A stretch of 24,000 nt of DNA from Micromonosporaceae bacterium (GTDB lineage Bacteria; Actinomycetota; Actinomycetes; Mycobacteriales; Micromonosporaceae). Location of the stretch: contig DASSUC010000150.1 of the NCBI GenBank assembly GCA_035707405.1, forward strand, positions 2,876-26,875, read 5' to 3'. Shown one piece after another: positions 6,756 through 22,194 of this stretch. The first letter of the stretch is position 1, and each line of letters starts with the position of its first letter. Below the pieces are notes generated by a model that was not told where the DNA came from, did no database searches, and saw only the letters and a list, made by a program, of their open reading frames with translations. The translations under genes and the position numbers were made by a program.

Positions 6756-9700
6756 CAGACCTGGCCGCACGGATCGCGCAGCTGTCCCCGGAGGAACGCA
6801 CCAGGCTGGCGAGCCTGCTCCGCCGGCCGGCCGCTGGCGCCTCCCCGGTGCCGGAGGGCGCCGGTGGCATCACCCCCGTACCACGGGACGGCCGCCACCT
6901 CCCGTTGTCGTTCACCCAGGAACGCATCTGGTTCCTGGAGCAGTTCGACCCCGGTACGCCGTACCACAACATGTCCGGGGTGGCCCACGTGCCGATGCGG
7001 ATAGAGCCCGACGTGTTCCGGGACTGCATCGACGAGGTGCTCGCCCGGCACGAGATCCTGCGTACGCGGTTCGTCATACATGACGGGGAGCCGGTCGGGA
7101 TCGCCGAGCAGCACGTCACCGTCCCCATCCGGGTCCTACCCGAGCTGCCGGAGCAGGACCGCGAACGGCTGTTCCAGCAGGACGCCACCCGCCCGTTCGA
7201 CCTGCGGGAGGCGCCGCTGCTGCGGGTGACGATCGCGCCGGAGCCCGGCGAGGAGAGCCTGGTCCAGCTCACCATGCACCACATCGTGTCGGACGGGTTC
7301 TCCACCGGGGTGTTCTTCCGCGAGCTCACCCAGCTCTACCGCCAACGGCGGGCCGGGGTACGGGTCGAGCTGCCGCCGCTGCCGTTCCAGTTCGCCGACG
7401 TCGCGGCGTGGGAGCGCCAGCACGTCGACAGCCGGTCGCAGGCGGGGTCCATCCGTTACTGGGCCAGCCACCTGCACGACGCGCCGCAACGGCTCACCCT
7501 GCCCGCCGACCATCCGCGGCCTCCCCGGATGACGAACCGCGGCGGGCGCCTGCGGGTCGCGCTGCCCGCGGCGCTGGCCGGACAGGTGCAGTCGTGGAGC
7601 CAGCGGAACGGGGTGACCCCGTTCGTCACGATGCTGGCGGGGTTCGTCGCCACCCTCTCCAGGTACGCGGCGCAGGACGACCTCGTCGTCGGCGTACCCG
7701 TGGCCAACCGGGAGCAGGCCGGCGTCGAGCAGCTCATCGGCCCCTTCCTCAACACGCTCGCGCTGCGGTTCGACCTCACCGCGGCGCCGACCTTCGCCGA
7801 GCTCGTGCAGCAGGTCAACCGCACGTTCCTGGCGAGCCTGGAGCACCAGCAGGTCCCGTTCGAGCGGGTCCTGCGGGAGGTGCAGCACGGCCGCGACCCG
7901 AGCCGGAGCCCGCTGTTCCAGGTCCTGTTCAACTTCCAGGCCGACCAGGCGTCGGCCGGGGCCCCGGGCTCGCAGCTGCGGGACGTGCACAACGGCGGCT
8001 GCGACTTCGACCTGCTGGTCAGCATCGTCAGCGGTGCCGATGGGATGACCGCCCACATCGACTACTACGCCGATGTCTACGAGGAGAGCAGCGTGGCCCG
8101 GTTCGCCGGGGCCTTCTGGGAGCTGCTGCGTGCCGCGGTGGGCGACCCCGGGCGGCCGGTGGCTGAGCTTGCGCTCGTGGGCGCGGACGCGTACTCCGAC
8201 GTCGCCGCACGCGCGGCCGGCCCCACGATGCCGTACGACGGCCAGTGCGGGGTGCACGACCTCGTGCTGCGGCAGGCTCACCAGGACCCGGCGCGGGTGG
8301 CGCTGGTCGAAGGCGACCGGGAGGTCACGTACCGCGAGGTCGCCGCCCGCTCCGCGGCCGTGGCGGCGCGGCTGCGCCGGCTGGTCACCGCACCAGACGC
8401 AGACACTGCACCAGACGCACACACTGCACCAGACGCACACGTGGCCATCTGCCTGCCCCGGTCGGCCGACATGGTGGTCGCGATCCTCGGCGTCCTGCGG
8501 GCGGGGCTCAGCTACGTACCGCTCGATCCTGAGTACCCCGCGGCGAGGCTCGCGTTCATCTGCGAGGATGCCCGCGCGGCTGCGGTGGTGAGCCGCCATG
8601 GGCTCGAGGACGTCGTCCCGGCAGCCGGCCTGCCGACGGTCTGGATGGACGAGCTCGACAGCGCCCCTGGTGAAGCCGGGCACGGTGACGGGGCGGGCGG
8701 CGACCGGCGCGCCTACACCATCTACACCTCAGGCTCGACCGGCCTGCCCAAGGGCGTCCAGATCAGCCACCGCAACGTCGTGAACTTCCTGCTCTCGATC
8801 TGCGAGCGCCCCGGCCTGGGGCGGCCCGACGTCCTGCTCGCGGTCACCAGCCCCTCGTTCGACATCGCCCTGCTGGAGATGCTCGCGCCGCTCACCTGCG
8901 GCGCGCGGGCCGTCATCGCCTCGCCCGCGGACGTGACCGACGGCCGGCGCCTCGCCGCACTGATCGAAGCTCATCAGGTGACCGTCATGCAGGCAACGCC
9001 CGCGACCTGGCAGCTCCTGCTGGCGAGTGGGTGGCGCGGCCGGCCCGGCCTGCGGGCACTGTGCGGCGGCGAGGCATTCCCACCCGCGCTCGCCGCGGCG
9101 CTGCTGGCCCGGTGCGGCGAGGTGTGGAACATGTACGGCCCAACCGAGACGACGATCTGGTCGACGATCCACCGGGTCAGCGAGGAGGACCCGGCGGGCG
9201 GCTCGATCCCCATCGGGAGGCCGATCGCCAACACCACCGCCTTCGTGCTCGATGCCGGGCTCAACCCGGTGCCGGAAGGCGTCCTCGGCGAGCTCTGCCT
9301 CGGTGGTGACGGGGTCTCCACCGGTTACCACCAGCGCCCCGACCTGACAGCGGCCAGGTTCGTCACACCGCCGTGGCTCGCCGGAGCCCGCGTGTACCGG
9401 ACCGGGGACATCGCCCGTGCCCGTGCGGGCGGGACGATCGACTTCCACGGCCGCAACGACGACCAGGTGAAGGTCCGCGGCTTCCGGGTCGAGCTGGGCG
9501 AGATCGAGGCGGTTCTGGGCGCGTACCCCGGCGTGGCCCGCGTGGCCGCGGCGGCCGTCGAGAACGACGGCGACATCGATAAGTTAGTCATCGCCTACGT
9601 GCAGCTCACACCAGCCGGCGGCGGGCCTGGGCTTTCCGCGCCTGGCGAGGGTGGCGTCACACCCGCCGGGTTGCAGGCATTCGCCAGCGAGCGGCTGCCG

Positions 9701-11359
9701 GACTACATGGTTCCCGGTCGGGTCGTGTTCCTCGCCGAGCTGCCGCTCACTCCCAATGGCAAGATCGACCGCAACCGCCTGCCCCGGCCGGACCGCCGCA
9801 TTGAGGCCGACCCGGGCCCGGCCGCCGCGCCGCCCGGCTCCGCTGCGCCCTCCACCGCGCCGCGCACCGAGACCGAGCAGGCCATCGCGGGCATCTGGCG
9901 GGACCTGCTCGGGCTGGGCGAGGTAGGGGTGGAGGACAGCTTCTTCGAGCTGGGCGGGCACTCCCTGCTGGCGACCAAGCTCATCTTCCGGATCCGCGAG
10001 GTCCTCGGCGTCGACCTGCCGCTCAACGCCCTCTTCGAGGGCGCGCCCACCGTCGCCGGGCTCGCCGCGCTCGTCACCGAAGGGAGCGACGCCTCCGGCG
10101 GTGACGAGGAGGTTCCCGACCTGGCCGAGGAGGCGCGGCTGGCCGATGACATCCGTCCGTCGCCCGGCGCGCACGTGCATTCGGTGCGGCACCCCCAGCA
10201 CATCCTGCTCACCGGTGCCACCGGCTTCGTCGGCGCGTTCCTGCTCGCCGAGCTGCTGCGCGTCACCGAGGCGACGGTCTTCTGCCTGGTCCGCGCGGCC
10301 TCCGCCGGGGAGGGCAGGGAGCGCATCCGTGACGCGATGACGGAGTTCGGGATCTGGGACACCGCCATGGCCGGACGCATCATCCCGGTGGTCGGCACCC
10401 TGGGCCGCCCGCGCCTCGGCCTCAGCCGGCCGCTGTGGCACCACCTGGCGGAGATGGTGGACGTCATCTACCACTGCGGCGCAGAGGTGAACTTCCTGCT
10501 CAAGTACCGGGCGATGAAGCCTGCCAACGTGGCGGGCACCGAGGAGATACTCCGGCTGGCCTGCCGCGGCCCGGTCAAGCCGGTGCACCTCGTCTCCACG
10601 CTCTTTGTCTTCTCCCGTTTCAGCTACCCACCGGGAACGGTGCTCACCGAGGACATGGAGCCGCTGCACGACCTCGACCACACGTTCGGGTACACGCAGA
10701 GCAAGTGGGTCAGCGAGCAGCTGGTCCGCGAGGCCGGGCGCCGTGGCCTGCCCGTCTACATCTACCGGTTGGGCCGGGTCGCCGGGCACAGCAGGACCGG
10801 GGCCTGCCAGACGTACGACTTCATGTGGCAGGTCACGAAGGTGGGGGTCGAAATGGCCGCTGCCCCGGTCATGGACATGGGGATGGACCTCACGCCGGTC
10901 GACTACGTCGCCAGCGCACTGGTCCACCTGTCCCGCCAACCGGCGCTGGAGGGCAAGGCGTTCCACCTGCTCGCTCCGAAGGAGATCCCGGAGCGCGAGC
11001 TCGTCGACTGGCTGGAACGCTACGGGTACCACACCGACAAGGTCACCTTCCAGGAGTGGTGCGTGCGGGTGGTCCAGCGCGCCGCCGAGCTGTCCGACCG
11101 GACCGCCGGGGCGCTGGCGCCGTTCCTCTCCGGGACGCTGCCGCTGGACCGGATCCCCGCCGCCCGTTACGACCAGCGCAACGTCGAGCAGGGCCTGGCC
11201 GGAAGCGGCATCCAGTGCCCGCCGCTGACGGAGGACCTCCTGCGCACCTACCTCGACTACTTCCGGGACAGCGGTTACCTACCGGCACCCACCGGGGCCG
11301 TCCCGGTGACGACCGCGCACGCGACCACCGCACCAACCGTCGGAGAGGCGTACCGATGA
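6752..11359 (+). CDS. Non-ribosomal peptide synthetase, C-A-T-R (terminal thioester reductase), predicted glycine-activating
   Basis: GTG 6752 overlaps the PKS stop (GTGA), indicating translational coupling. C domain: [10 protein letters not shown]. A domain: [52 protein letters not shown]. T domain: [10 protein letters not shown] (Ser codon 9962-9964). SDR-type reductase: [15 protein letters not shown] and YTQSK. A manual alignment to GrsA-PheA gives the specificity code D-I-L-Q-L-G-M-I-W-K, one residue away from the canonical Gly code DILQLGLIWK. Confidence 0.95.
   Translation: [1535 protein letters not shown]
8390..8440 (+). repeat. 18-bp in-frame tandem repeat (about 2.8 copies) inside the NRPS A domain
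   Basis: The copies are GCACCAGACGCAGACACT (8390-8407), GCACCAGACGCACACACT (8408-8425) and GCACCAGACGCACAC (8426-8440). They encode [17 protein letters not shown], between the A1 region ([10 protein letters not shown]) and the A2 region ([11 protein letters not shown]). Confidence 0.9.
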
Positions 11360-12339
11360 AGGCAGCCCGAATTCACCAGACCGGTAGTCCCGAGGTGCTT
11401 GAGCTGGAGGAGGTCGACGTCCCGGTCCCGGTGGACGACCGGGTCCTCATCCGCGTCGGCGTGGCAGGGGTGAACTTCACCGACGTCATGGCCCGGCAGG
11501 GTGTCTACATCAGCCGGGACGTCGCGCCGGCGCTGCCGGCCATCCTCGGCACCGAGGTGGCCGGCGTCGTGACCGCCACCGGCCCGGGCGTCACCGAGGA
11601 CCTGGCCGGCAAGCGGGTCATCGCCTTCGTCCGTGGCGGCTACGCCGAGTACGCGGTCGCGTCGCGGCAGCTCGTCGCGGAGCTGCCGCCCGGCATCGAC
11701 CTGGCCGACGCGACCGCGTTCCTGGTCCAGGGGGTCACCGCCTGGCAGCTGCTGCGGGAGTGCGGGCGCATCGACCGAGGCGAGACCGTCCTGGTGCACA
11801 CAGCAGCCGGCGGTGTGGGCACGCTCGCGGTCCAGCTCGCCAAGGCGCTCGGAGCATCAACCGTCATCGCGACTGCCGGGTCGGCCGACAAGCGCAAGCT
11901 CGCCGCCGAGCTCGGTGCCGACGTCACGGTCGACTACACCGTCCCCGACTGGGCGGACGCGGTGCTCGCGTCGACCGGTGGGCAGGGTGTGGACATCATC
12001 CTCGACGCCGTCGGAGGGGATGTCGGCGAGCAGAGCCTCGCCTGCCTGGCACCGTTCGGCAGGCTCGTGTCCTACGGCGTGTCGAGCAAGCTGCTCGCCG
12101 CGTTCTCCGGGTCGCAGCTCATGCAGAAGAACCAGTCGGTCACCGGCTACTGGCTGACCGGCCGGCTCGCCCGCGACAGCAGGCCGGTCATGGACGCCGT
12201 CGCGAGCCTGCTGGAGCTGGCGGGCCAGGGCCGGATCCACGCGGTTGTCCGGCACGCCTTCCCGCTGGAGAAGGTGGCTGATGCGCACCGGGCGATCAGC
12301 GACCGTGGCACCGTCGGCAAAGTCGTCCTGACGGTGTAG
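11356..12339 (+). CDS. Zinc-type alcohol dehydrogenase / NADPH:quinone oxidoreductase family (MDR) enzyme; candidate trans-acting enoyl or aldehyde reductase
   Basis: ATG 11356 overlaps the NRPS stop (ATGA). The translation MKAARIHQTGSPEVLELEEVDVPVP...VGVAGVNFTDVMARQGVY, with the AAGGVGTLAVQLAKALGA dinucleotide-binding motif, is typical of the quinone-oxidoreductase subgroup of MDRs. The track ORF 10435-12339 upstream of 11356 is out-of-frame overlap with the NRPS. Confidence 0.85.
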   Translation: MKAARIHQTGSPEVLELEEVDVPVPVDDRVLIRVGVAGVNFTDVMARQGVYISRDVAPALPAILGTEVAGVVTATGPGVTEDLAGKRVIAFVRGGYAEYAVASRQLVAELPPGIDLADATAFLVQGVTAWQLLRECGRIDRGETVLVHTAAGGVGTLAVQLAKALGASTVIATAGSADKRKLAAELGADVTVDYTVPDWADAVLASTGGQGVDIILDAVGGDVGEQSLACLAPFGRLVSYGVSSKLLAAFSGSQLMQKNQSVTGYWLTGRLARDSRPVMDAVASLLELAGQGRIHAVVRHAFPLEKVADAHRAISDRGTVGKVVLTV

Positions 12340-12349
12340 GAAGGCGACC

Positions 12350-13273
12350 ATGAACATACTGATCTACGGAGCGGGCGTCATCGGCCAGATCTACGGCGGT
12401 CGGCTGGCGGAGGGCGGCCACAACGTGACCCTGCTCGCCCGCGGGGACCGGGTCCGGTCGCTGGCCGAGCACGGCGTGACCCTGTGCAAGGACGGCGAGC
12501 TGCGGCAGTGGCGCCCGCAGGTGGTCACCGCAGTCCCTGCGGACACCGTGTTCGACGTTGTCCTCGTGGCGGTCCGCCGGGACCAGGTCGCCCACGCCGC
12601 GCCGCAGCTCGCGCACGTGGCCGCCGACCACGTGGTCTTCCTGCTCAACCAGGGCATCGACCTGGAGGAGCTGCGGCGCAGGACCGGGCCGGAACGGACC
12701 CTCTTCGGCTTCCCCGGAGTGGGGGGCTACCAGTCTTCGGAGACAGCAGTCACCTACATCGAGATACCGCAGCAGAAGACCACGATCGAGCACCGTGCCG
12801 GGCGCGAGCGACCGGTCGTCGAGATGCTGCGGACGGCGGGCTTCCCCGTCGCCGTCAGCGACAGCATGGGGGCGTGGCTGGCGACGCACTCGGTCTTCGT
12901 CACCGCGGTAGGCGCCGCCGTCCTCGCCGAGGGCGGTGACAGCGTCGCCCTCGCCGCGGACCGCAGGCGGGTGGCCGACGTGGTGGCCGCGGTCGGAGAA
13001 GGGTTCCGGGCGCTGTCCCGGCAGGGCATCCCGGTCACACCGGTACCGCTACGGCTGATCTTCACGGTGGTACCCCGGTTCTTTGCGGTCCGCTACTGGC
13101 AACGCCAGCTGCGCGGCCCGGTCGGCACGGTCGCGATCGCTCCGCACATGCGCGCAACGGGGTATACGGAGCTGCCCGTGCTCGGCGCCGACGTACGCCG
13201 CCTCGTGGCCGGGCACGGGCCGACCCCGCACCTGGACCAGCTGCTGGAACCCCTACGGGACAGGGCCTCATGA
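12350..13273 (+). CDS. Ketopantoate reductase (ApbA/PanE) family NAD(P)-dependent oxidoreductase
   Basis: 307-aa ORF with a GGAAGG RBS about 6 nt upstream of ATG 12350. The N-terminal Rossmann motif MNILIYGAGVIGQIYGGRLAEGGHNVTLLAR and the overall length match the 2-dehydropantoate 2-reductase family. Confidence 0.8.
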   Translation: MNILIYGAGVIGQIYGGRLAEGGHNVTLLARGDRVRSLAEHGVTLCKDGELRQWRPQVVTAVPADTVFDVVLVAVRRDQVAHAAPQLAHVAADHVVFLLNQGIDLEELRRRTGPERTLFGFPGVGGYQSSETAVTYIEIPQQKTTIEHRAGRERPVVEMLRTAGFPVAVSDSMGAWLATHSVFVTAVGAAVLAEGGDSVALAADRRRVADVVAAVGEGFRALSRQGIPVTPVPLRLIFTVVPRFFAVRYWQRQLRGPVGTVAIAPHMRATGYTELPVLGADVRRLVAGHGPTPHLDQLLEPLRDRAS

Positions 13274-13280
13274 CCTGACC

Positions 13281-13340
13281 GGCCGGGCAACCACGACACC
13301 GGTCCGGCAACCACGACACCGGCCGGGCAACCACGACACC
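13281..13340. repeat. Intergenic 20-bp tandem repeat, 3 copies plus a degenerate fourth
   Basis: The copies are GGCCGGGCAACCACGACACC (13281-13300), GGTCCGGCAACCACGACACC (13301-13320) and GGCCGGGCAACCACGACACC (13321-13340). A decayed copy follows (GGACAACCACA near 13355-13365). The unit length is not a multiple of 3. The array sits between the stop at 13273 and the A-domain gene start. Confidence 0.9.
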
Positions 13341-13391
13341 AGGTGGCACAACCCGGACAACCACATGACAAGCGAAGGTGGGCTGAGTGGG

Positions 13392-14939
13392 ATGACCACA
13401 GCAGCTGACTCCCCGACCCTGCTGCACGCGTTCCTCGACCAGGTGGACAAGCATCCCCGGCGGGTAGCGATCATTGACGGATCTCGACGGATACGCTACC
13501 GCGACCTAGCCCGGGCAGCCGAGAAGGTGCGCCGGGACCTCGTCGGCGCCGGAGTGCGCCCGTCGGACCACGTCGGCATCTCGATGCAGCGGTCCTGGCG
13601 GGTTGTCGCCGCGATCGTCGGCACGCTCGCCGCCGGCGCCCGCTACGTGCCGCTCGACCCGAGCTACCCGCAGGCGCGGATCGACTTCATGGCCGCCGAC
13701 AGCGGACTGCGTGTGGTGTGCTGCGATGCGGGGCGGCCGGCGAGCGTTCCGCTGGGGCTGACGCAGGTCCCGGTGTCCGGAGACGGCTCCGACGGGCTCC
13801 TGGCACCGGACGCGGCGGAGTCGTCGGGGTATGTCATCTACACGTCGGGCTCTACCGGCAGGCCGAAGGGTGTGGTCATCCCGCAGCAGCACGTGCTGAG
13901 CCTGTTCGGGGGAGCGTGCCGGTCGCACTTCTCCTTCAGCTGCGAGGACGTGTGGACCTTCTTCCACAGCTACAGCTTCGACTTCTCCGTATGGGAGATA
14001 TGGGGAGCGCTCGTCTTCGGCGGCGCCATCGTCATCGTCGACGACGCGGCCAGGCGCGACCCGGGGCAGCTGCTCACCCTCCTCCACGAGCACCGGGTAT
14101 CGGTGCTCAGCCAGGTGCCCAGTCCGTTCAAGTACCTGTCACTGCGGTACGAGATGAGCCCCCGGCCGCTGAGGTCGCTGCGCTACGTCGTGTTCGGCGG
14201 CGAGGCGCTGGACAAACCCTCGGTCCGCACCTGGCTGTCGCTGCGCGACGGCCCCGAACAGCTGGTCAATATGTACGGCATCACCGAGACGACCGTGCAC
14301 GTCACCGCCAAGGTCGTCACGCCGGCGGACGTCGCTGACGACTCGTCACCGACCTCGATCGGCGTTGCCCTCCCGCACCTCGACATCGCCCTGGTCCGGG
14401 CCGATGGCACGGTCGCCGGCGCGGGTGAGCCCGGCGAGATGTGGGTCTCGGGCAGCACGCTCAGCCCGGGCTACGTCGGGAGCCCGGACCTCACCGCCGA
14501 GAGGTTCGTGAACCGCGACCTCGGCAGCGGCACCCGCCGGTGGTACCGCAGCGGCGACGTGGCAAGCCGGCAGCCCGACGGTAACCTGCTCTACCTCGAT
14601 CGGCTCGACTCCCAGGTCAACCTGCGTGGCTTCCGCATCGAGCTGGGTGAGATCGAGGCTGTCCTGCGCCAGAGCGGCGATGTCAGGGACGCGGCTGCCA
14701 CGGTGGTGGCGCTCCCGGGAGACGAACGCACTCTCGTCGCGGCCGTCCTGCCGGTGGACCGGGCCGCTCCGCCGGCAGGCGAGGCACTGCGTGAGATGTG
14801 CCGTGGCAGGCTTCCGTCCTATATGGTTCCCGACCGGGTGATGGTAGTGGAGAAGATCCCCGTGACCCCGGGCGGGGAGAAGGTCGACCGGAAGGCCATC
14901 GCGGCCATGGCAGCCGGCGCTCTGGCCGCGACCTGTTAG
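13392..14939 (+). CDS. Free-standing adenylation (AMP-binding) enzyme, NRPS A-domain type, Thr-like specificity code, no carrier domain
   Basis: Motifs present: [67 protein letters not shown]. The ORF ends about 20 aa after A10, so no T domain is present. The manual specificity code is D-F-W-S-V-G-M-V-H-K, compared with the Thr code DFWNIGMVHK. The start is placed at ATG 13392 (GAAGGTGG upstream). ATG 13365 is an alternative. The track start at 13083 overlaps the preceding gene and the 20-bp repeats. Confidence 0.88.
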   Translation: [515 protein letters not shown]

Positions 14940-14943
14940 CCGT

Positions 14944-15390
14944 CTAGCATTCCTGATCGAGCACCTGCGGTGGGTTCTCTGGTGGCTTCCCCGTCTCGTT
15001 GGACAGGATTGCTGCGTAGCTCATCACCAGAGCCAGGGGAGCCACGTAGAGAGTGGACGGCAGGATGCTCTCCGGCCAGTCATCGGCTGTTGTCAGACCG
15101 ACATAGGCGATGGTGGCCTCCAGCAGGAGGACGGCCGACATGCAGTATCGGCGTGACTTCCGCAGCCGTTCGTCGAGCAGTGTAAGGAAAACTACCAGCG
15201 GCAGCCCGAGGCCGCAGGCCCGGAGCAGCACCGAGGAGTACGAGCCGATAACCCCGGCGGCGACGAGCACGGCGGTGAAGGCCACGATGTTGCCTGCCAC
15301 CCCAATGGCCACGGCGCGGACAAAACTCTTCCAAGAACGCCTCGTGCTGGCCGGGGCCGCCTTATTGTCAAGGTCTGGGTTGCCTGCCAA
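14944..15390 (-). CDS. Small hypothetical integral membrane protein (about 4 predicted TM helices), lower-G+C gene
   Basis: The minus-strand frame has high GC3 and four hydrophobic stretches: FVRAVAIGVAGNIVAFTAVLVAAGVIG, GLGLPLVVFLTLL, MSAVLLLEATIAYVGL and LYVAPLALVMSYAAIL. The start is uncertain. TTG 15390 is preceded by AGGGGG with a 5-nt spacer, and TTG 15423 is an alternative. The 287-aa track ORF extends upstream through the likely promoter. Confidence 0.55.
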   Translation of the reverse strand: MAGNPDLDNKAAPASTRRSWKSFVRAVAIGVAGNIVAFTAVLVAAGVIGSYSSVLLRACGLGLPLVVFLTLLDERLRKSRRYCMSAVLLLEATIAYVGLTTADDWPESILPSTLYVAPLALVMSYAAILSNETGKPPENPPQVLDQEC

Positions 15391-15466
15391 CGTAGCCCCC
15401 TGGAAATCCAGCTCCGAATGCAAGGTAGATCCGCCGGGTCTCGGCCTTGCCAAGAGTTGTGGGTCG

Positions 15467-15472
15467 ATTATA
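15467..15472 (-). promoter_or_regulatory. Perfect TATAAT -10-like hexamer (minus strand) in an AT-rich patch upstream of the membrane-protein gene
   Basis: The minus strand reads ...GATTTAAATCTTTGTTGGTTTCG-TATAAT-CGACCC. This is the only strongly AT-rich patch (about 15465-15505) in the 15390-15806 divergent intergenic region. No good -35 hexamer is present. Confidence 0.35.
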
Positions 15473-15605
15473 CGAAACCAACAAAGATTTAAATCGGTAA
15501 AATAGGCACCTTGTCGGCGGCGCGTCCACTCGGACGGTCCGACCAGGGCGACCTTGGCCGGGCGGGTGATAGTGGGCGGGCGATAGCACGGAGCCGGCCA
15601 TCCGG

Positions 15606-15684
15606 CCGCACAGGGTGTGCGGAGGGCGCCGCGAAACCACGCCGGACGGGCGGACAACGGCCTGAAACCGCACACGGTGTGCGG
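15606..15684. promoter_or_regulatory. Two near-identical 17-bp palindromes upstream of the NOS gene (candidate operator pair or 5'-leader hairpins)
   Basis: CCGCACAGGGTGTGCGG (15606-15622) and CCGCACACGGTGTGCGG (15668-15684) lie 62 bp apart centre to centre. The second is immediately preceded by GAAACC; another GAAACC lies between the two palindromes at 15633-15638. They sit 120-200 nt upstream of ATG 15806. Confidence 0.4.
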
Positions 15685-15805
15685 CGTCGCCCGCCGTGAG
15701 GTGGCCAGAATGTGACCAACGGTGGTCGGTCGACGCCTTGCGCGGGGACCATGCGGTGCCGGCGACCCCCGAGACCGAGCTGGCCGACCTCGGGAGGTTC
15801 CGGGC

Positions 15806-18037
15806 ATGACCGCCGTTCCCGGTTACCGTGACGTGCCAATCAAACCTTGGCATCCCGACACGCCGGTCGACCTCGCGGAGGCCGAGGAGTTCCTGCGCGC
15901 CTGCTATGCGGAGACGCCGACGCTCGGCCCGGTCGAGCCCCGTCTGGCCATCGTGCGCGAGCAGGTCGACGCCGTCGGGACGTACGTGCACACGCAGGCC
16001 GAGCTGGTCCACGGCGCGCGGATGGCGTGGCGCAACAGCAGCCGGTGCATCGGCCGGCTCTACTGGCGCAGCCTGGTCGTGCTCGACCGGCGCACCGCCC
16101 GTACCCCCGATGAGATCTTCGACCACATCCTCACCCACCTGGATGTCGCCAGTGGACGGTCCCGGCAGGCCGACGCCGAGCCGGCACCGGGACGGCTGCG
16201 TCCGGTCATCTCGGTCTTCGGCCAGGCGGTGCCCGGCCGGCCCGCCACGCGCATCTGGAACGACCAGCTCATCCGGTACGCGGGCTACCGCACCGAGGAC
16301 GGGTCGGTGGTCGGCGACCCGAAGTTTGTCGACTTCACCGAAGCGGTCACCGAGCTTGGCTGGCACGGCAAGGGCGCGGCGTTCGATGTCCTGCCGCTGG
16401 TGCTGGACGCGCCGGGGACCGGGCCGCGGGTCTACGAGCTGCCCGAGTCGGCCGTGCACGAGGTGCCGTTGACCCACCCGGAGCACCGGTGGTTCGCCGA
16501 GCTGGGCCTGCGCTGGTACGCCATCCCGGCGATCGCCAACATGCGGCTGTCGATCGGTGGCGTCAACTACCCGCTGGCACCGTTCAGCGGCTGGTACATG
16601 GGCACCGAGATCGGCGCCCGCAACCTCGCCGACACCGACCGCTACGACATGCTGCCGGTCATCGGCGCGCGGCTCGGGCTCGACATGTCCAGTGAGCGGA
16701 CGCTGTGGCGGGACCGGGCGCTGGTCGAGCTCAACCGCGCCGTGCTCTGGTCGTTCGAGCAGGCAGAGGTACGCATCGCCGACCACCACAGCGAGTCGCG
16801 GCGCTTCCTGACCCACGTCGCCAAGGAGGAGCGCGCCGGCCGCAAGACCCCGGCGGACTGGACCTGGATCGTGCCCCCGATGTCGGGCGGGCTCACCCCG
16901 GTCTTCCACCGCTACTACGACGAGGCTGACCAGCGCCCCAACTTCTACCTGGACGACGAGGCCCGCGCGTACGCCCGGCACGGCCGGCCGTGCGGTGCGA
17001 GCACCGAGCGGCGGGCGGCCGTGGCCGAAGCCAGCCCTCCAGCCGAGGCGCCGGGCGTGCGGGACGACGTGGCCGCCCCGGCCCCTCTCCTCGCCGCGGC
17101 GACCATCCGGGCCACCGCGGCGGTTCCCATGACAGCCCCTGCCGCGCTGCTGGGCCAGGCCCGGGTCTCGCCTCCCGCGCCGGGTGGCATGCCGGAGGGC
17201 GGCGGCCCGCCCCCGGGCGGCCGGCACAGCGACGCCGCCCGGCACGGCGACATCGGCAGGCATGGCGACATCGGCAGGCAAGGCGGTCCGCCCGGGCACG
17301 ACAGCCCGGGACATCGCGGCCCGGGTGCCGGCGACGGCTACGGTCGCAGCGGCTACCAGTCGAACGGCTCGTCCGGCGGTAACCGGCACACCGGCAACGG
17401 GCACGGCCCGAACGGGCACTCTCCAAACGGGAGCGCGGGAAACGGCCGTGGCGGCAGCGGCTACGCCCCGAACGGGCCGTACGGTGAGAACGGCGGAGGC
17501 GGTGCGCCGGGCGAGATGGAGGCACCGCTACGGCTGGCCGTCAACCCCTGGGCGGCAGCGCCCGAGGTGCGCAGCGTCAAGCCACGGCCGCCCTCTCCCA
17601 TCGTGACGCCGCCCCGGATGACCGAGCCCCCGCCGCCCGTGCGGCCGGCCGTCCCAGCCGGCACGGTGGTCGTCTCCGGCGGGGCCGTGCCGGGGTACGC
17701 GGCCGGGCAGTACGTCCTCGTCGCGCAGCCGTCCGCCGCCGGTCCCGCCGGGCCACCCGGACCGGCCGCCACGGGTGGCGCCGCGCCGGCCCAGGTCGTC
17801 AGCGAGGCTGTCCCCGACGCCGGGCCTGCTCACGGTGGGCCGCCGGCAGGTGAGCCGGAGCGCGCCGCCGCACCCACCGGCCGGGACCGGCCTGCGGAGG
17901 CTGCGAGCAGCACCGAGACCACCATGGTGCGGCCTGCGGCGCCGGTACCCGCCGAGGAGCCGCCGGCCGCCGGTGACCCGCCCGGGCCGCCCGAGCGGCG
18001 GCGCTGGCTGCGGCCGGGCAAGCGGGGCACCGGCTGA
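15806..18037 (+). CDS. nos: Bacterial nitric oxide synthase oxygenase domain (about 385 aa) fused to a C-terminal tail of about 358 aa that is low-complexity and Pro/Gly/Ala-rich
   Basis: GGGAGG RBS 8 nt upstream of ATG 15806. NOS signature motifs: WRNSSRCIGRLYWRSL (heme-thiolate Cys codon 16046-16048), SGWYMGTEIGARN (substrate-binding Glu), ADHHS, WIVPPMSGGLTPVFH. After ...RPNFYLDDE (about 16960) the frame stays open with high GC3 through a Pro/Gly/Ala/Asn/His-rich region to the TGA at 18035-18037. Confidence 0.9.
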   Translation: MTAVPGYRDVPIKPWHPDTPVDLAEAEEFLRACYAETPTLGPVEPRLAIVREQVDAVGTYVHTQAELVHGARMAWRNSSRCIGRLYWRSLVVLDRRTARTPDEIFDHILTHLDVASGRSRQADAEPAPGRLRPVISVFGQAVPGRPATRIWNDQLIRYAGYRTEDGSVVGDPKFVDFTEAVTELGWHGKGAAFDVLPLVLDAPGTGPRVYELPESAVHEVPLTHPEHRWFAELGLRWYAIPAIANMRLSIGGVNYPLAPFSGWYMGTEIGARNLADTDRYDMLPVIGARLGLDMSSERTLWRDRALVELNRAVLWSFEQAEVRIADHHSESRRFLTHVAKEERAGRKTPADWTWIVPPMSGGLTPVFHRYYDEADQRPNFYLDDEARAYARHGRPCGASTERRAAVAEASPPAEAPGVRDDVAAPAPLLAAATIRATAAVPMTAPAALLGQARVSPPAPGGMPEGGGPPPGGRHSDAARHGDIGRHGDIGRQGGPPGHDSPGHRGPGAGDGYGRSGYQSNGSSGGNRHTGNGHGPNGHSPNGSAGNGRGGSGYAPNGPYGENGGGGAPGEMEAPLRLAVNPWAAAPEVRSVKPRPPSPIVTPPRMTEPPPPVRPAVPAGTVVVSGGAVPGYAAGQYVLVAQPSAAGPAGPPGPAATGGAAPAQVVSEAVPDAGPAHGGPPAGEPERAAAPTGRDRPAEAASSTETTMVRPAAPVPAEEPPAAGDPPGPPERRRWLRPGKRGTG
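17243..17278 (+). repeat. 18-bp tandem repeat inside the NOS tail (encodes RHGDIG-RHGDIG)
   Basis: CACGGCGACATCGGCAGG (17243-17260) and CATGGCGACATCGGCAGG (17261-17278). A partial third unit follows (CAAGGCGG...). Nearby peptide-level repeats are NGHGPNGHSPNG. Confidence 0.85.
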
Positions 18038-18064: not shown

Positions 18065-18376
18065 TCACTCCGCCGCGCCGAGGTAGGTGCGGATGGCGGT
18101 GGTCAGGGTCCGCATGGTCGCGGGGGTGAGCTGCCCGGCCGGCCCGGCGACTGCGGCAGGGTCGATGGAGCGTATCCGGGAGAGGTCGACGACTGCGGCG
18201 GTCGGCCAGTCCTGCCGGTTGAGTGGTACGAGAAAGGCGGGCGCGAGACCCGGCGCGGCCCGTTCCCGCAGTGGTGCCAGGAGCCCGTGCGCCGGGTTGT
18301 AGCGGTCGGCGGTGACCACGACCACCCGCAGCCGGTGGCTGCCCACCGTGTAGTGCAGGATGCTGCCGCGCCTCAT
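18065..18376 (-). CDS. Type II toxin, MazF/PemK-like fold (putative)
   Basis: 103 aa. The pattern RRGSILHY...LRVVVVTADRYNP...FLVPLN...AAVVDLSRIRSIDPAAV...GQLTPATMRTLTTAIRTYLG follows the PemK/MazF layout (RGD-like start, buried VVVS-x-D-x-xN strand, late I-x-T-ID strand). The ATG overlaps the stop of the upstream small gene (ATGA). Confidence 0.6.
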   Translation of the reverse strand: MRRGSILHYTVGSHRLRVVVVTADRYNPAHGLLAPLRERAAPGLAPAFLVPLNRQDWPTAAVVDLSRIRSIDPAAVAGPAGQLTPATMRTLTTAIRTYLGAAE

Positions 18377-18615
18377 CCAGCGGCCCAGGACCGGTCGTCA
18401 TGGGCCGCGAGCGCATCCAGCGCCGCGCGCTCCTGCGCGTCCGCGTCGGCGTCCCATTGCCGGTACGCCTCCAGCGCGGCAGTCTCGAGGTACTCGACCA
18501 GCGCGGCGTTGACCGTCGAGGAGAGGTTGGCCCCTGGCGTGCTCTGCACGTGCGCGGTGAGCATCCGGTCGACCTCGGGGCGCATGGACAGCGTCCGCTT
18601 GATGGTGTCCGCCAT
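18373..18615 (-). CDS. Ribbon-helix-helix (CopG/RHH-like) antitoxin (putative)
   Basis: 80 aa. An N-terminal beta-strand/helix pattern (KRTLSMRPEVDRMLTAHVQ...LSSTVNAALVEYLE) is followed by an acidic tail. It has a 4-nt overlap with the toxin gene, the classic antitoxin-first TA architecture. Confidence 0.6.
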   Translation of the reverse strand: MADTIKRTLSMRPEVDRMLTAHVQSTPGANLSSTVNAALVEYLETAALEAYRQWDADADAQERAALDALAAHDDRSWAAG

Positions 18616-18676: not shown

Positions 18677-18895
18677 TCAGCCGGCTGCCGGGCCGCTCGC
18701 GCCGTGCTCGACGCAGACCGCCCGCCACCCGGCCGGCAGCACCTGGACCTTCAGCCGCCGGCGGCACGCCGGGCAGTACCTCGGCGGCTCCAGCACCCGG
18801 GCGCGCCGGCACGCGTCATGGCCACCGGAGGAGCCCGCGGCATCCAGCGCGCCGCCGCAGCGGTCGCACCACACCGCGCCCACTGTCATCTTCAC
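18677..18895 (-). CDS. bsaP: Small Cys-rich protein coupled to bioB; resembles the actinobacterial biotin synthase auxiliary protein (BsaP/Rv1590-like)
   Basis: 72 aa with CxxC...HxxC...PPRYCxxC...C..HG spacing ([43 protein letters not shown]). GTG 18895 overlaps the bioB stop (GTGA). ATG 18889 is an alternative start. The position directly downstream of bioB matches mycobacterial synteny. Confidence 0.55.
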
Positions 18896-19887
18896 AGCGT
18901 CGCGGACAGCGCCTTGACCGGCATCCGCAGCTCGTCCAGCAGTGCCAGGTCGGCCTGGGCCGGCCGGCCCAGCGTGGTCAGGTAGTTGCCGACGATCACC
19001 GCGTTGACCCCGCCGAGTAGGCCGTCACGCGTACCCAGGTCACCCAGGGTGATCTCGCGGCCGCCGGCGTACCGCAGGATCGTGCGGGGCAGCGCGAGCC
19101 GGAACGCGGCGATGGCCCGCAGCGCGTCCCGCGCGTCGAGCACCGCCTGCCCGCCCAGCGGCGTGCCGGGCCGGGGGTTGAGGAAGTTCAGCGGCACCTC
19201 GTCCGGCCCGAGGGCGGCGAGCTGGGTCGCAAACTCGGCGCGCTGCGCGAGGGTCTCGCCGAGGCCGAGGATGCCGCCGCAGCAGACCTCCATGCCGGCC
19301 TCGCGCACCATGCGTAGCGTCTCGAAGCGCTCCTCCCAGGTGTGCGTGGTGACCACGCGCGGGAAGTAGGAGCGGGCCGTCTCCAGGTTGTGGTTGTAAC
19401 GGTGCACGCCGAGCGCGGCCAGCTCGTCCACCTGGGCCTGGGTGAGCATGCCCAGTGACGCCGCGATGTTGATGTCCACCGCCGCCCGGATCGCGGCCAT
19501 GCCCTCGCGCACCTGCGCCATCAGCCGCTCGTCCGGCCCCCGGACGGCGGCCACGATGCAGAACTCGGTCGCCCCGGTCGCCGCGGTCTGCCGGGCCGCC
19601 TCGACCAGCGCCGGGATGTCGAGCCAGACGGCGCGCACCGGCGAGGTGAACACGCCGGACTGGGAGCAGAAGTGGCAGTCCTCGGGGCAGCCGCCGGTCT
19701 TCAGCGAGACGATGCCCTCGACCTCCACGTCAGGCCCGCACCAGCGCATGCGTACCTCGTGTGCCAGCGCGAGTGCGGCGGGCACCTGGTCGTCGGGGAG
19801 CTCCAGCACGGCCAGGACGCCGGCCTCGTCGAGCCCCACGCCCGCCTCCAGCACCTGGCTACGGGCCTGTTCGAGGACCTCAGGCAT
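18892..19887 (-). CDS. bioB: Biotin synthase (radical SAM)
   Basis: 331 aa. Radical-SAM motif [13 protein letters not shown]. The overall BioB pattern is present ([39 protein letters not shown]). Confidence 0.95.
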
Positions 19888-19893
19888 GGTCGT

Positions 19894-19899
19894 ACCCTA
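19894..19899 (-). promoter_or_regulatory. -10-like TAGGGT hexamer 6 nt upstream of the bioB ATG (suggests a leaderless bioB transcript)
   Basis: The minus strand reads CTTG-TAGGGT-ACGACC-ATG. There is no Shine-Dalgarno sequence between the hexamer and the ATG. The whole bioB/bioF divergent intergenic region is only 53 bp. Confidence 0.35.
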
Positions 19900-19940
19900 C
19901 AAGGCGTCCAAGGCACGGCGGAGCAGTCGGGGGCGAGGAG

Positions 19941-21086
19941 ATGACCGGCTACCTGGACCGGCTGGCGGAGAAGGCGCAGCAGCGGGCGCAGGCCGGGCTG
20001 CGCCGCGAGCTGCGCCCGCGCGCAGCCACCGACCAGGCGGTCGACCTGGCCGGCAACGACTACCTGGGCATGGCCCGCCACCCCGCGGTGCTCGCCGCCG
20101 CCACCGCGGCCATCACCGGGTACGGCCTCGGCGCCACCAGCTCCCGGCTGGTACGCGGCACCACGCAGGCCCACGCGGACCTCGAGACGGCTCTCGCCGG
20201 CTGGCTCGGGCACCCGGCCGCGCTCGTCTTCTCCTCCGGCTACCTGGCGAACCTCGCGGCGGTACGGGCGCTCGCCGGGCGCGACGGCGTGGTGGTCGCC
20301 GACGCGTACAACCACGCGTCCCTGGTGGACGGTTGCCGGCTCGCGGCGGCGGCGGGCGCGGAGACGGTGGTGGTGGACCACGCCGACCCGGGGGCGGTGG
20401 CCCGGGCGCTCGCCGCCCGGCCGGGCCGGGACGCGGTCGTGGTGACCGAGTCGGTGTTCTCTGTGGACGGCGACCTGGCGCCCCTGGCCGAGCTGCACGC
20501 CGTGGCCCGCCGCCACGGTGCGGTGCTGCTGGTCGACGACGCCCACGCGGTGGGCCTGCTGGGCCCGTACGGTGCCGGCGGGGTGGCCGCAGCCGGGCTA
20601 GCCGGCCAGCTCGACGTCGTGGTGACCGCCACGCTGTCCAAGGCGTTCGGCGCCGCCGGCGGGGTGGTGGCCGGGCCGGCCGTGCTGCGCACCCACCTGG
20701 TGGACACCGGGCGCAGCTTCATCTACGACACGGCCCTGCCGCCGGCGCTGGCCGCCGGGGCGCACGCGGCGCTGGACCTCATCCGGTGCGGCGACGCCGC
20801 CCGGGCCGAGCTGGCCCGCCGCGCCGCGCTCGCCACCGCCCGGCTGCGCGCCGCCGGCCTGTCCTTGCCCGACCCGGCGGGCGGGGTGCTTTCGGTGCGG
20901 GCGAGCGGGCCGGAGCAGGCCGTGGCGTGGGCGGCGGCCTGCCGCGACCGGGGCGTGGTGGTCGGCTGCTTCCGGCCGCCGTCCACTCCGGACGGGCAGT
21001 CCCGGCTGCGGCTCACCATCAACGTCGCGGTCCCCGCCGGCGAGCTGGACAAGGCGCTGGATGTCATCGTGGAGTGCGCACCGTGA
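19941..21086 (+). CDS. bioF: 8-amino-7-oxononanoate synthase (PLP-dependent)
   Basis: GGGGGCGAGGAG lies immediately upstream of ATG 19941. The translation is MTGYLDRLAEKAQQRAQAGLRRELRPR...AGNDYLG...SSGYLANL...TESVFSVDGD...DDAHAVG...ATLSKAFG (PLP lysine). The track ORFs starting at 19442 and 19761 are antisense to bioB upstream of this ATG. Confidence 0.9.
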   Translation: MTGYLDRLAEKAQQRAQAGLRRELRPRAATDQAVDLAGNDYLGMARHPAVLAAATAAITGYGLGATSSRLVRGTTQAHADLETALAGWLGHPAALVFSSGYLANLAAVRALAGRDGVVVADAYNHASLVDGCRLAAAAGAETVVVDHADPGAVARALAARPGRDAVVVTESVFSVDGDLAPLAELHAVARRHGAVLLVDDAHAVGLLGPYGAGGVAAAGLAGQLDVVVTATLSKAFGAAGGVVAGPAVLRTHLVDTGRSFIYDTALPPALAAGAHAALDLIRCGDAARAELARRAALATARLRAAGLSLPDPAGGVLSVRASGPEQAVAWAAACRDRGVVVGCFRPPSTPDGQSRLRLTINVAVPAGELDKALDVIVECAP

Positions 21087-21111
21087 CCGGGCGGAGCGAG
21101 GAGGCACCCTC

Positions 21112-21864
21112 GTGACCGAGCCGTGGCGGGGGCCGGTGCTGGTGACCGGCACCGACACCGAGGTCGGCAAGACCGTGGTGACGGCGGCCGTGGCCGCGGC
21201 GGCCGGCGCGGCCGGGCTGCGGGTCGCCGTCGTCAAGCCGGCGCAGACCGGCATCGACACCGGCGCCGACCCGGACACCACAGGCGCCGACCCGGACACC
21301 ACAGTGGAGTCCGACGTGGACGTGGTGCTGCGGCTGGCCGCGCCGGCCAGCGCCCGGGCGCTGGCCACCTACCCGGAGCCGCTCTCGCCGCTCGCCGCGG
21401 CCCAGGTGGCGCAGCTGCCCCCGCTCGCCCTGGACACCGCGCTGGCCGCGGTACGGGCCGACGCGGCAGCGTACGACCTGGTGCTCGTCGAGGGCGCCGG
21501 TGGGCTGCTGGCGCCGATGGGGGAGGGCTGGACCCTGGCCGACCTCGCGGTGAACCTCGGCTGCCCGGCGCTGGTCGTGGCCCGGGCCGGCCTCGGCACG
21601 CTCAACCACACCGCGCTCACCCTGGAGGCGCTGCGACGGCGGGGCCTCTCCGCGCGGGTGGTCATCGGCGCCTGGCCCGCGGTGCCGGAGCTGGTGCACC
21701 TGTCCAACCTGGTGGCGCTCGCCCCGGACCTGGCCGGCGTGGTGCCCGACGGCGCCAGCGGGATGGACTGCGGGGTGTTCCGGCGCTCGGCGCCGGGCTG
21801 GTTCACCCCGCTGCTGTACGGCTCGGTCGACGACGTACGGCAGTGGGCCGACCCGGTGCACTGA
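21112..21864 (+). CDS. bioD: Dethiobiotin synthetase
   Basis: GAGGAGG RBS 8 nt upstream of GTG 21112. P-loop VLVTGTDTEVGKT, then KPAQTG, VEGAGGLLAP and GTLNHT motifs. An in-frame 7-aa duplication is described separately. Confidence 0.9.
   Translation: MTEPWRGPVLVTGTDTEVGKTVVTAAVAAAAGAAGLRVAVVKPAQTGIDTGADPDTTGADPDTTVESDVDVVLRLAAPASARALATYPEPLSPLAAAQVAQLPPLALDTALAAVRADAAAYDLVLVEGAGGLLAPMGEGWTLADLAVNLGCPALVVARAGLGTLNHTALTLEALRRRGLSARVVIGAWPAVPELVHLSNLVALAPDLAGVVPDGASGMDCGVFRRSAPGWFTPLLYGSVDDVRQWADPVH
21262..21303 (+). repeat. Perfect 21-bp tandem duplication inside bioD
   Basis: GGCGCCGACCCGGACACCACA occurs at 21262-21282 and again at 21283-21303. It encodes GADPDTT-GADPDTT just after the KPAQTG motif. 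Confidence 0.95.
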
Positions 21865-22194
21865 GCCTGCGTCGCCACGTCACAGGCCGGTGACAGGCCG
21901 GCCGTCGCGGACGTGTCCACTGTCGATCCCGGGCGACCCGGCCGGGTTGAGTAGCGCCGGCCAGCAACGGGACAGGCCATCGGCGCGCACTATGTCATCG
22001 GATGCGCAGGTCTGCCTGTTCGGTGGGTACCCTCCTGGCGGGAGCTCGATAAAAAGAGGGCCTTGACCAGTTCGTGGACAGGATGATCGGTTGTCGGGAG
22101 GTGACCGTCCGGGGGAGCCTTACGGGCTTGCGGTCTGATCGATCGCAGGAAACCCTCATGGAGGCGACGGGGGAGGCGGCGAAGGGTGCAGGCG

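What the first reader, a model, noticed from the sequence alone, without database searches (positions are those of the whole stretch)
16961..18034. NOS oxygenase fused to a C-terminal extension of about 358 residues that looks intrinsically disordered
Characterised bacterial NOS proteins are essentially the oxygenase core alone. The known exception is Sorangium, which has fused reductase modules. Here the canonical core ends around ...RPNFYLDDE, but the same frame continues for about 1.07 kb. Third-position G+C stays high and there are no stops. The encoded sequence is Pro/Gly/Ala/Asn/His-rich low complexity (RHGDIGRHGDIG, NGHGPNGHSPNG, PPSPIVTPPRMTEPPPPVRP). It ends in a basic RRRWLRPGKRGTG motif and includes an 18-bp DNA tandem repeat. 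No flavin, ferredoxin or other redox-partner motif is visible. The tail may therefore be a scaffold or localisation region (cell-envelope tether, condensate former, or docking site for a partner such as the adjacent adenylating enzyme) rather than a reductase.
Basis: partly seen in the sequence, partly recalled or inferred. Interest (0 to 1): 0.75.

Follow-up and report, generated by a model that had tools for sequence, protein, structure and literature searches.

The report
Bacterial NOS with long disordered tail
A soil actinomycete's nitric oxide synthase really does carry a translated, floppy tail of 358 residues, but it is an extreme stretched version of a shorter motif-bearing tail found on most NOS enzymes of that bacterial family, and its function is still only inferred.

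Summary
One gene (15806-18037, +) encodes 743 aa: an intact NOS oxygenase core (aa 24-385) and a 358-aa tail with no Pfam, PDB or other database match.

The tail is not a frameshift or a separate gene. Three other lineages, from six independent assemblies, keep the same frame through to the same RRRWLR-type C-terminus, and every indel is in frame. dN/dS is lowest in the NOS frame: 0.40-0.52 for the tail, 0.05-0.36 in two conserved islands, and 0.13-0.19 in the core. AlphaFold2 gives pLDDT below 50 and no secondary structure for aa 414-743.

The tail is not an isolated oddity. In 107 related Micromonosporaceae-type NOS, tails run 20-393 aa (median 59). The long-tail clade is monophyletic. Its sister clade has about 51-aa tails that end in RRWLRP.

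The tails share short motifs. One is a Cys-Pro box resembling a heme regulatory motif; the window has Ser-Pro there. The others are [LV]RPxxP and a basic C-terminal end that resembles the MinD membrane-targeting sequence in relatives.

The adjacent adenylating enzyme is not a conserved neighbour.

Best reading: a flexible tether presenting short motifs. The target is unproven; an anionic membrane or an acidic partner is most likely.

The parts
15792..15797 (+). Shine-Dalgarno-like GGGAGG, 8 nt upstream of the ATG
   Evidence: Read from the sequence.
15806..18037 (+). Whole NOS gene: 743 codons plus the stop at 18035-18037
   Evidence: ORF list. Homologues start at the same MT(A/T)VPGYRD.
15875..16960 (+). 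NOS oxygenase core (aa 24-385), with heme-thiolate Cys81 and Glu268 invariant
   Evidence: Pfam PF02898, E = 1.8e-146. PDB bacterial NOS chains cover aa 24/25-385. Invariant columns. AF2 pLDDT is mostly 80-98 in 10-residue blocks.
16961..18034 (+). C-terminal extension of 358 aa (aa 386-743)
   Evidence: No match in Pfam, PDB or the representative library. Collinear in L001, L003 and L004. dN/dS 0.40-0.52 in this frame only.
16955..17038 (+). Two predicted helices just after the core (aa 384-392 and 397-409), the only part of the tail with moderate confidence
   Evidence: AF2 block pLDDT 69-86. Coordinates.
17093..17170 (+). Conserved island 1: AAATIRATAAVPMTAPAALLGQARVS (aa 430-455)
   Evidence: Nearly invariant in four lineages. 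dN/dS 0.05-0.36.
17171..17518 (+). Hypervariable low-complexity stretch rich in Gly/Pro/His/Asn/Ser/Tyr (aa 456-571), including the repeated hexapeptide D-x-x-R-H-G
   Evidence: TRF repeats at 17218-17285, 17334-17369 and 17396-17431. Hexapeptide copy number is 0-4 among homologues, always in frame.
17519..17665 (+). Conserved island 2 (aa 572-620): EAPLRLAVNPWAAAPEVRSVKPRPPSPIVTPPRMTEPPPPVRPAVPAGT. It holds the Ser-Pro counterpart (codon TCT at 17594-17596) of the Cys-Pro box, and a VRPAVP motif.
   Evidence: dN/dS 0.05-0.29. L001 and L004 have Cys at this position (TGT/TGC). The [LV]RP[AP][CVA]P motif occurs in 31 of 108 tails.
17666..17734 (+). Semi-conserved, mildly hydrophobic stretch VVVSGGAVPGYAAGQYVLVAQPS (aa 621-643)
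   Evidence: Alignment. No TM-grade hydropathy.
17918..17953 (+). Conserved island 3: TTMVRPAAPVPA (aa 705-716), a second VRPAxP motif
   Evidence: Alignments.
17987..18034 (+). Terminal basic motif PPERRRWLRPGKRGTG (aa 728-743)
   Evidence: R303 R304 W305 L306 R307 are invariant in the four long tails. RRWLRP also ends the sister clade's roughly 51-aa tails (P0005, P0006). Basic ends occur in 35 of 108 tails.

Best explanation
The tail is a real, translated, mostly disordered C-terminal extension of an otherwise ordinary, intact bacterial NOS oxygenase.

Origin (shown): it arose in one small uncultured Micromonosporaceae clade by in-frame expansion of the short C-terminal tail that most NOS of this family carry. 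The added material is GC-codon-rich Gly/Ala/Pro low complexity and slippage-prone 15- and 18-bp repeats. The family's short linear motifs were kept: a Pro-rich (C/S)P...VRPAVP box and an Arg-rich terminal RRRWLR motif.

Mechanism (inferred): the variable stretches act as a flexible tether of loosely constrained sequence and length, and the conserved islands are the working parts. The terminal basic/aromatic motif most likely holds the enzyme at an anionic surface, with the cytoplasmic membrane as the first candidate. An acidic partner such as a flavodoxin or ferredoxin electron donor is the alternative. The Pro-rich island would bind a partner not yet identified.
For: Translation and selection:
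- Four lineages share a collinear tail that ends in the same motif, with every indel in frame.
- Tail-to-tail BLASTP gives E = 4e-70 against P0001 and 2e-11 against P0003.
- dN/dS in the NOS frame is 0.40-0.52 with no stops. Other frames give 1.0-1.8 with stops, except the antisense frame that shares third positions.
- The islands have dN/dS 0.05-0.36 and the linkers 0.25-0.83.

Disorder:
- AF2 gives pLDDT below 50 and no secondary structure for aa 414-743, next to a confident core.
- Composition supports this.

Derived expansion:
- In the NJ tree of core sequences the long-tail clade is monophyletic. Its sister clade has tails of about 51 aa ending in RRWLRP.
- No tail-like gene lies downstream in short-tail loci.

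Family-wide motifs.

Resemblance of relatives' ends to the E. coli MinD membrane-targeting sequence KGFLKRLFGG (PMC5471200):
- PRKGFLKRRGK
- RKRGLRRLLG
- KKGWLRGARK
Against: - No experiment or structure links any of these motifs to a target.
- In the window's clade the terminal motif has only Trp-Leu as hydrophobic residues and is followed by Pro. An amphipathic helix is therefore doubtful: the hydrophobic moment was matched or exceeded by 8% of shuffles.
- AF2 predicts no docking of the tail motifs onto the monomer, either in the window protein or in the short-tailed P0062.
- Linker dN/dS values of 0.25-0.83 and the GC-codon composition fit largely neutral expansion.
- The clade is known only from metagenomes, so expression of the full-length protein is unverified.
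Confidence: 0.55

Rival explanations
1. The tail is largely neutral 'junk'. GC-biased mutation and replication slippage inflated a tolerated linker, and only the ancestral terminal motif, if anything, does any work.
For: - G+A+P+R, the amino acids of GC-rich codons, make up 62% of the tail.
- Repeat copy number differs among lineages.
- Tail DNA is 77% identical to L001, against 92% for the core.
- Linker dN/dS is 0.25-0.83.
- The tail has no homologue outside the clade.
Against: - Islands 1 and 2 were added together with the expansion, yet show dN/dS of 0.05-0.36 and near-invariant sequence even in the most distant member, L004.
- The frame stays intact over about 290-390 codons in four lineages.
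Confidence: 0.25
2. The basic end on a long flexible arm recruits the acidic electron donor (flavodoxin or ferredoxin) that bacterial NOS needs. The tail would substitute functionally for the missing fused reductase.
For: - Prokaryotic NOS oxygenases depend on auxiliary reductase partners (bioRxiv 10.1101/2025.08.15.670619).
- The terminal motif is strongly cationic and conserved.
Against: - No redox-partner gene is a conserved neighbour.
- There is no flavin or Fe-S motif in the tail.
- No modelling or co-variation evidence exists.
Confidence: 0.12
3. The Gly/Ser/Asn/Tyr/Arg/His-rich middle region drives self-association, so the tail acts as a condensate or scaffold. Alternatively it binds metal through its His repeats.
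For: - The region has GYG/SGY/RGG-like composition and 8 His in about 80 residues.
- That composition is conserved across lineages although the sequence is not.
Against: - The argument rests on composition alone.
- This is the least constrained and most length-variable part. It is reduced to about 50 residues in L004.
Confidence: 0.06
4. The tail is an artefact: a sequencing or assembly frameshift, or a separate downstream gene read through.
For: In DNA of 78-80% GC an open 358-codon frame arises by chance in about 4% of shuffles.
Against: - The same frame and the same C-terminus appear in independent assemblies from ENA, JGI (two samples), NCBI and Logan (two runs).
- The dN/dS signature is frame-specific.
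- No stop or internal start is conserved at the core-tail junction.
Confidence: 0.02

Closest known systems
Stand-alone bacterial NOS oxygenases (B. subtilis, Geobacillus; PDB e.g. 1m7v, 2flq)
   Same: The core matches over its full length (aa 24/25-385, E about 1e-111). It has the heme-thiolate Cys and the substrate Glu, and lacks a fused reductase and an N-terminal Zn hook.
   Different: Those proteins end within a few residues of the core. This one continues for 358 mostly disordered residues.
Tailed NOS of cultured Micromonosporaceae (Catellatospora, Asanoa, Pilimelia, Micromonospora pattaloongensis), annotated simply as 'nitric oxide synthase oxygenase'
   Same: They show 60-74% identity to the query and have a C-terminal tail beyond the core with CP, LRPxxP and/or basic terminal motifs.
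   Different: Their tails are 20-162 aa. The window's is 358 aa, has clade-specific islands 1 and 2 and repeat arrays, and has lost the Cys of the CP box.
Multi-domain NOS (Sorangium type; cyanobacterial syNOS)
   Same: Each is a NOS oxygenase with extra sequence in the same polypeptide.
   Different: Their extras are folded redox, globin or C2 domains (Sorangium from my own knowledge). Here no domain is detectable.
Folded domain plus disordered linker plus short C-terminal anchoring peptide, as in the MinD or FtsA membrane-targeting sequences and the FtsZ C-terminal linker and peptide
   Same: The architecture is the same. Relatives' ends resemble MinD KGFLKRLFGG (one search compared).
   Different: There is no homology. 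The window's own end (RRRWLRPGKRGTG) lacks a clear amphipathic helix, and membrane binding is untested.
Heme regulatory motifs in the disordered C-terminal region of heme oxygenase-2
   Same: A heme enzyme whose tail carries Cys-Pro followed by a hydrophobic residue, often with a basic residue before it (definition in PMC2742820; family statistics).
   Different: The window protein has Ser-Pro at that site. Heme binding or redox switching has not been tested in any NOS tail.

Membership tests
Bacterial NOS oxygenase (PF02898) | Full-length match to the NO_synthase oxygenase domain | tested here: met
   aa 24-385 match profile positions 7-359 of 362, E = 1.8e-146. PDB bacterial NOS chains match at about 1e-111.
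Bacterial NOS oxygenase (PF02898) | Heme-thiolate Cys in WRNxxRCIGR, and the substrate-binding Glu in GTEIG | tested here: met
   C81 and E268 lie in invariant columns of the 63-sequence alignment. The functional roles of these residues are from my own knowledge of NOS.
Bacterial NOS oxygenase (PF02898) | Makes NO from L-arginine | not testable with these tools
   This needs an enzyme assay.
Reductase-fused NOS (mammalian, cyanobacterial, Sorangium types) | Flavodoxin/FNR or Fe-S reductase module in the same chain | tested here: not met
   The tail has no Pfam hit at E <= 0.01, no PDB hit at E <= 1 and no hit among 1.84 billion representatives. AF2 shows no fold.
Intrinsically disordered region | No predicted stable structure, and disorder-type composition | tested here: met
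   pLDDT below 50 and no DSSP elements for aa 414-743. Disorder-promoting residues are 74% and sequence entropy is low. Both are computational proxies.
C-terminal amphipathic membrane-targeting sequence (MinD/FtsA type) | Located at the extreme C-terminus and conserved | tested here: met
   RRWLR is invariant in the four long tails and present in the sister clade.
C-terminal amphipathic membrane-targeting sequence (MinD/FtsA type) | Amphipathic helix of about 8-12 residues with a hydrophobic face | tested here: inconclusive
   The window has only W-L followed by Pro, and its hydrophobic moment was matched or exceeded by 8% of shuffles. By eye, relatives such as RKRGLRRLLG and QRKGFRGILDRRRV show hydrophobic residues at i, i+3 and i+4.
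C-terminal amphipathic membrane-targeting sequence (MinD/FtsA type) | Binds the membrane | not testable with these tools
   This needs localisation or liposome assays.
Heme regulatory motif (HRM) | Cys-Pro core followed by a hydrophobic residue | tested here: not met
   The window has PRPP-S-P-IV (TCT), while L001 and L004 have C-P. The feature is met in 77 of 108 relatives' tails.

The most novel reading that the evidence does not exclude
The variable C-terminal tails of Micromonosporaceae NOS are a previously undescribed regulatory and localisation module. It would consist of an HRM-like Cys-Pro box that senses heme, redox state or NO, plus a basic C-terminal membrane anchor. These motifs would place NO synthesis at the membrane and gate it. 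The window's clade would have stretched this module into a tether of about 360 residues with extra docking islands.
Probability: 0.2. Interest if true: 0.7.

Novelty: new variant of a known kind. Interest (0 to 1): 0.5.

Why it matters
Bacterial NOS is treated as a bare oxygenase that borrows cellular reductases, and little is known about how it is localised or regulated. A conserved tail bearing motifs gives concrete, testable handles:
- a terminal basic peptide to test for membrane or partner binding;
- a Cys-Pro box to test for heme or redox sensing;
- natural length variants from 20 to 390 residues.

If the tail proves to be mostly neutral, it is still a clean example of how GC-biased low-complexity sequence and repeat slippage can nearly double the length of an enzyme while short motifs are preserved.

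Tried and rejected
- **Tail-only homology searches found nothing useful.** There were 0 hits in the 1.84-billion representative library, 0 in the word-indexed search, 0 in PDB and 0 in Pfam. The word-indexed search did not even recover P0001-P0003, probably because of low-complexity candidates and bias filtering.
- **The GTDB genome scan with the tail** gave only a spurious 44-residue low-complexity match in a Holophagae MAG (L006). No species-representative genome with the long tail was found. The patterns used came from variable regions, so this negative result is weak.
- **The metagenome scan** recovered only the P0001 lineage again (L010).
- **Hydrophobic-moment analysis of terminal peptides was uninformative.** Even the MinD membrane-targeting sequence did not stand out.
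- **AF2 docking.** I used AF2 to look for the CP/LRP motif docking on the core in the short-tailed P0062. The motif had pLDDT below 50. Only the monomer could be modelled.
- **HMM of the bipartite RCP...LRPxVP motif.** It hit 20-25 tails robustly but not the window's island 2. Island 2's equivalence to the family motif therefore rests on the shared position of C/S-P-(I/V) and VRPAVP, and is an inference.
- **Rfam** found nothing in the window.
- **Transmembrane segment in the tail:** the highest 19-residue hydropathy is 1.45, in an Ala-rich stretch, which is not convincing.
- **Literature searches** for tailed or disordered bacterial NOS in the held library found no prior description.
Full report
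**1. The observation**

The + strand carries one open frame, 15722..18037. The likely start is ATG 15806. It is preceded by GGGAGG at 15792-15797, and all homologues begin at the same MT(A/T)VPGYRD. The product is 743 aa.

Pfam NO_synthase matches aa 24-385 (E = 1.8e-146), and nothing else matches. Solved bacterial NOS chains from B. subtilis (360-366 aa) and Geobacillus (375 aa) align to aa 24/25-385 and stop within a few residues of that point. The heme-thiolate Cys81 and Glu268 sit in invariant columns. The core is therefore a normal, intact bacterial NOS oxygenase.

The 358 residues encoded by 16961-18034 are extra. The 18-bp tandem repeat lies at 17218-17285 with 3.8 copies, and two 15-bp repeats follow it. 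GC3 is 0.87 in the tail and 0.93 in the core.

**2. Is the tail translated?**

An open frame alone is weak evidence at 78-80% GC. About 4% of shuffles of the tail DNA have no in-frame stop, and the window is full of long spurious ORFs. The comparative evidence decides the question.

- Three other proteins share a collinear tail: P0001 (781 aa), P0002 (742 aa, from a Micromonosporaceae MAG) and P0003 (669 aa).
- They come from independent ENA, JGI, NCBI and Logan assemblies.
- In the four-way alignment every indel is in frame, and all four end in (R/G)RRWLRx..RG.
- Tail-to-tail BLASTP gives E = 4e-70 for P0001 (67% identity) and 2e-11 for P0003.
- Nei-Gojobori dN/dS is 0.13-0.19 for the core and 0.40-0.50 for the tail. 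Two islands give 0.05-0.36.
- Reading the same DNA alignment in all six frames gives 0.40-0.52 with no stops only in the NOS frame. The other frames give 1.0-1.8 with stops. The exception is the antisense frame that shares third positions, which has 4-7 stops.

A frameshift, an assembly error or a separate gene is therefore excluded.

**3. Anatomy (coordinates)**

| Residues | Window nt | Feature |
|---|---|---|
| aa 384-409 | within 16955-17038 (aa 384-411) | Two predicted helices (384-392, 397-409), AF2 block pLDDT 69-86 |
| aa 430-455 | 17093-17170 | Island 1, AAATIRATAAVPMTAPAALLGQARVS, almost invariant |
| aa 456-571 | 17171-17518 | Hypervariable Gly/Pro/His/Asn/Ser/Tyr low complexity |
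| aa 572-620 | 17519-17665 | Island 2, ...PWAAAPEVRSVKPRPPSPIVTPPRMTEPPPPVRPAVPAGT |
| aa 621-643 | 17666-17734 | Semi-conserved, mildly hydrophobic stretch |
| aa 644-704 | about 17735-17917 | Acidic Pro/Ala/Gly linker |
| aa 705-716 | 17918-17953 | Island 3, TTMVRPAAPVPA |
| aa 728-743 | 17987-18034 | Terminal PPERRRWLRPGKRGTG |

In the low-complexity stretch, the hexapeptide D-x-x-R-H-G has 0, 1, 3 and 4 copies in the four lineages.

AlphaFold2 with a 63-sequence alignment gives a confident core. For aa 414-743 it gives pLDDT below 50 and no secondary structure. G+A+P make up 54% of the tail.

The tail alone has no match in Pfam, PDB, a 1.84-billion-protein representative library or the word-indexed search.

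**4. Where the tail came from**

The best 120 NOS homologues are all Micromonosporaceae-like. Among the 107 whose core end could be located, tails beyond RPNFY run from 20 to 393 aa with a median of 59.

An NJ tree of the cores places the four long-tail proteins in one clade. Its sister is a clade with tails of about 51 aa (P0004-P0007). Two of those end in WRRWLRPARQ and LKRWLRPAARQ, the same terminal motif.

Loci with short-tailed NOS have no downstream gene resembling the tail. The long tail is therefore a lineage-specific in-frame expansion between retained end motifs. It is not a gene fusion.

Tail DNA evolves faster than its surroundings. It is 77% identical to L001, against about 92% for the core and flanks.

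**5. Motifs shared across the family**

- *Cys-Pro box.* 83 of the 105 Cys residues in the tails are followed by Pro, against 15.8 ± 3.6 expected from shuffling, and 77 of 108 tails carry a CP. Among 71 distinct CP contexts, 60 have V/F/I/L/M next, 25 have Arg before, and His follows two or three residues after the CP in 29. The cores have 3 CP among 216 Cys. This fits the published definition of a heme regulatory motif (PMC2742820). In island 2, L001 and L004 have PRPPCPIV and PQPSCPVV, while the window and L003 have Ser. The window codon is TCT against TGT in L001.
- *[LV]RP[AP][CVA]P.* This occurs in 31 of 108 tails. In 20-25 tails it forms a bipartite RCP...PR..LRPxVP box. The window has VRPAVP and VRPAAP.
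- *Basic end with hydrophobic residues.* 35 of 108 tails have one. Several resemble the E. coli MinD membrane-targeting sequence KGFLKRLFGG (PMC5471200): PRKGFLKRRGK, RKRGLRRLLG and KKGWLRGARK.

**6. Genomic context**

NOS sits at a conserved chromosomal position upstream of BsaP-bioB and bioF-bioD in all loci examined. The upstream neighbour varies:

- PKS, NRPS and a stand-alone adenylation enzyme in the window and L003;
- lasso-peptide genes in L001;
- a two-component system in L004;
- an acetyltransferase in short-tailed relatives.

The adenylating enzyme is thus not a conserved partner of the tail.

**7. Mechanism**

Shown: the tail is translated, is disordered by prediction, contains conserved islands under purifying selection separated by loosely constrained linkers, and is derived by expansion of a family-typical tail.

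Inferred: the linkers act as a flexible tether and the islands are short linear motifs. I take the terminal Arg/Trp/Leu motif to bind an anionic surface. The membrane is the first candidate, by analogy with MinD-like ends in relatives. An acidic redox partner is the alternative, because prokaryotic NOS needs auxiliary reductases.

The weaknesses are real. The window's own terminal motif has only W-L followed by Pro, and its hydrophobic moment was matched or exceeded by 8% of shuffles. AF2 shows no docking of the motifs on the monomer, in the window protein or in the short-tailed P0062. The Cys of the CP box is absent here. A largely neutral expansion remains a serious rival for the linkers, but it does not explain the conservation of islands 1 and 2.

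**8. Comparison with known systems, and verdict**

This is a member of the bacterial NOS oxygenase family. It is not a reductase-fused NOS. Searches of the held literature found no description of disordered or tailed bacterial NOS.

I rate it a new variant of a known kind, of moderate interest. The most interesting part is the family-wide motif set, which makes NOS localisation and regulation testable. The tail's length in itself is less interesting.

Noticed in passing
Relatives' NOS tails (P0008-P0120); window counterpart at 17594-17596: In the C-terminal tails of Micromonosporaceae-type NOS, 83 of 105 Cys are followed by Pro (about 16 expected). The usual form is (R/A/G)-C-P-(V/F/I/L)-x-(H/G), often at the very C-terminus (CPVAH, CPFAH, CPMGH). 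It looks like a heme regulatory motif on a heme enzyme. The window has Ser at this site.
   Followed up: partly
window 14966-15555 (ORF 14944..15807, minus strand): A stretch of about 590 bp with lower GC (about 0.63) lies between the adenylation gene and NOS. It is absent from the otherwise roughly 93%-identical locus L003. On the minus strand it encodes what looks like a small multi-pass membrane protein with no Pfam match.
   Followed up: partly
window 18065-18376 (-) and 18373-18615 (-): A MazF/PemK-like toxin (Pfam E = 3e-7) and an overlapping 80-aa antitoxin-like gene are wedged between NOS and bioB. The pair is also present in L001 and L003.
   Followed up: no
window 1185-14939 (+): A hybrid PKS (KS-AT-DH-KR-ACP) and NRPS (C-A-PCP-reductase) cluster with a Zn-dependent ADH, an ApbA/ketopantoate-reductase-like gene and a stand-alone adenylation enzyme. 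It is shared with L003 but not with L001 or L004, so it is a variable insertion next to NOS.
   Followed up: partly
window 18892-21893 and loci L001, L003, L004, L007, L009: NOS occupies a conserved position next to the divergent biotin genes (BsaP-bioB / bioF-bioD) across Micromonosporaceae-type loci.
   Followed up: partly
window 16961-18034 compared with 15806-16960: Synonymous divergence (dS) is about twice as high in the tail as in the core of the same gene: 0.43 against 0.18 for window versus L001. This may reflect repeat misalignment, weaker codon constraint or local hypermutability.
   Followed up: no
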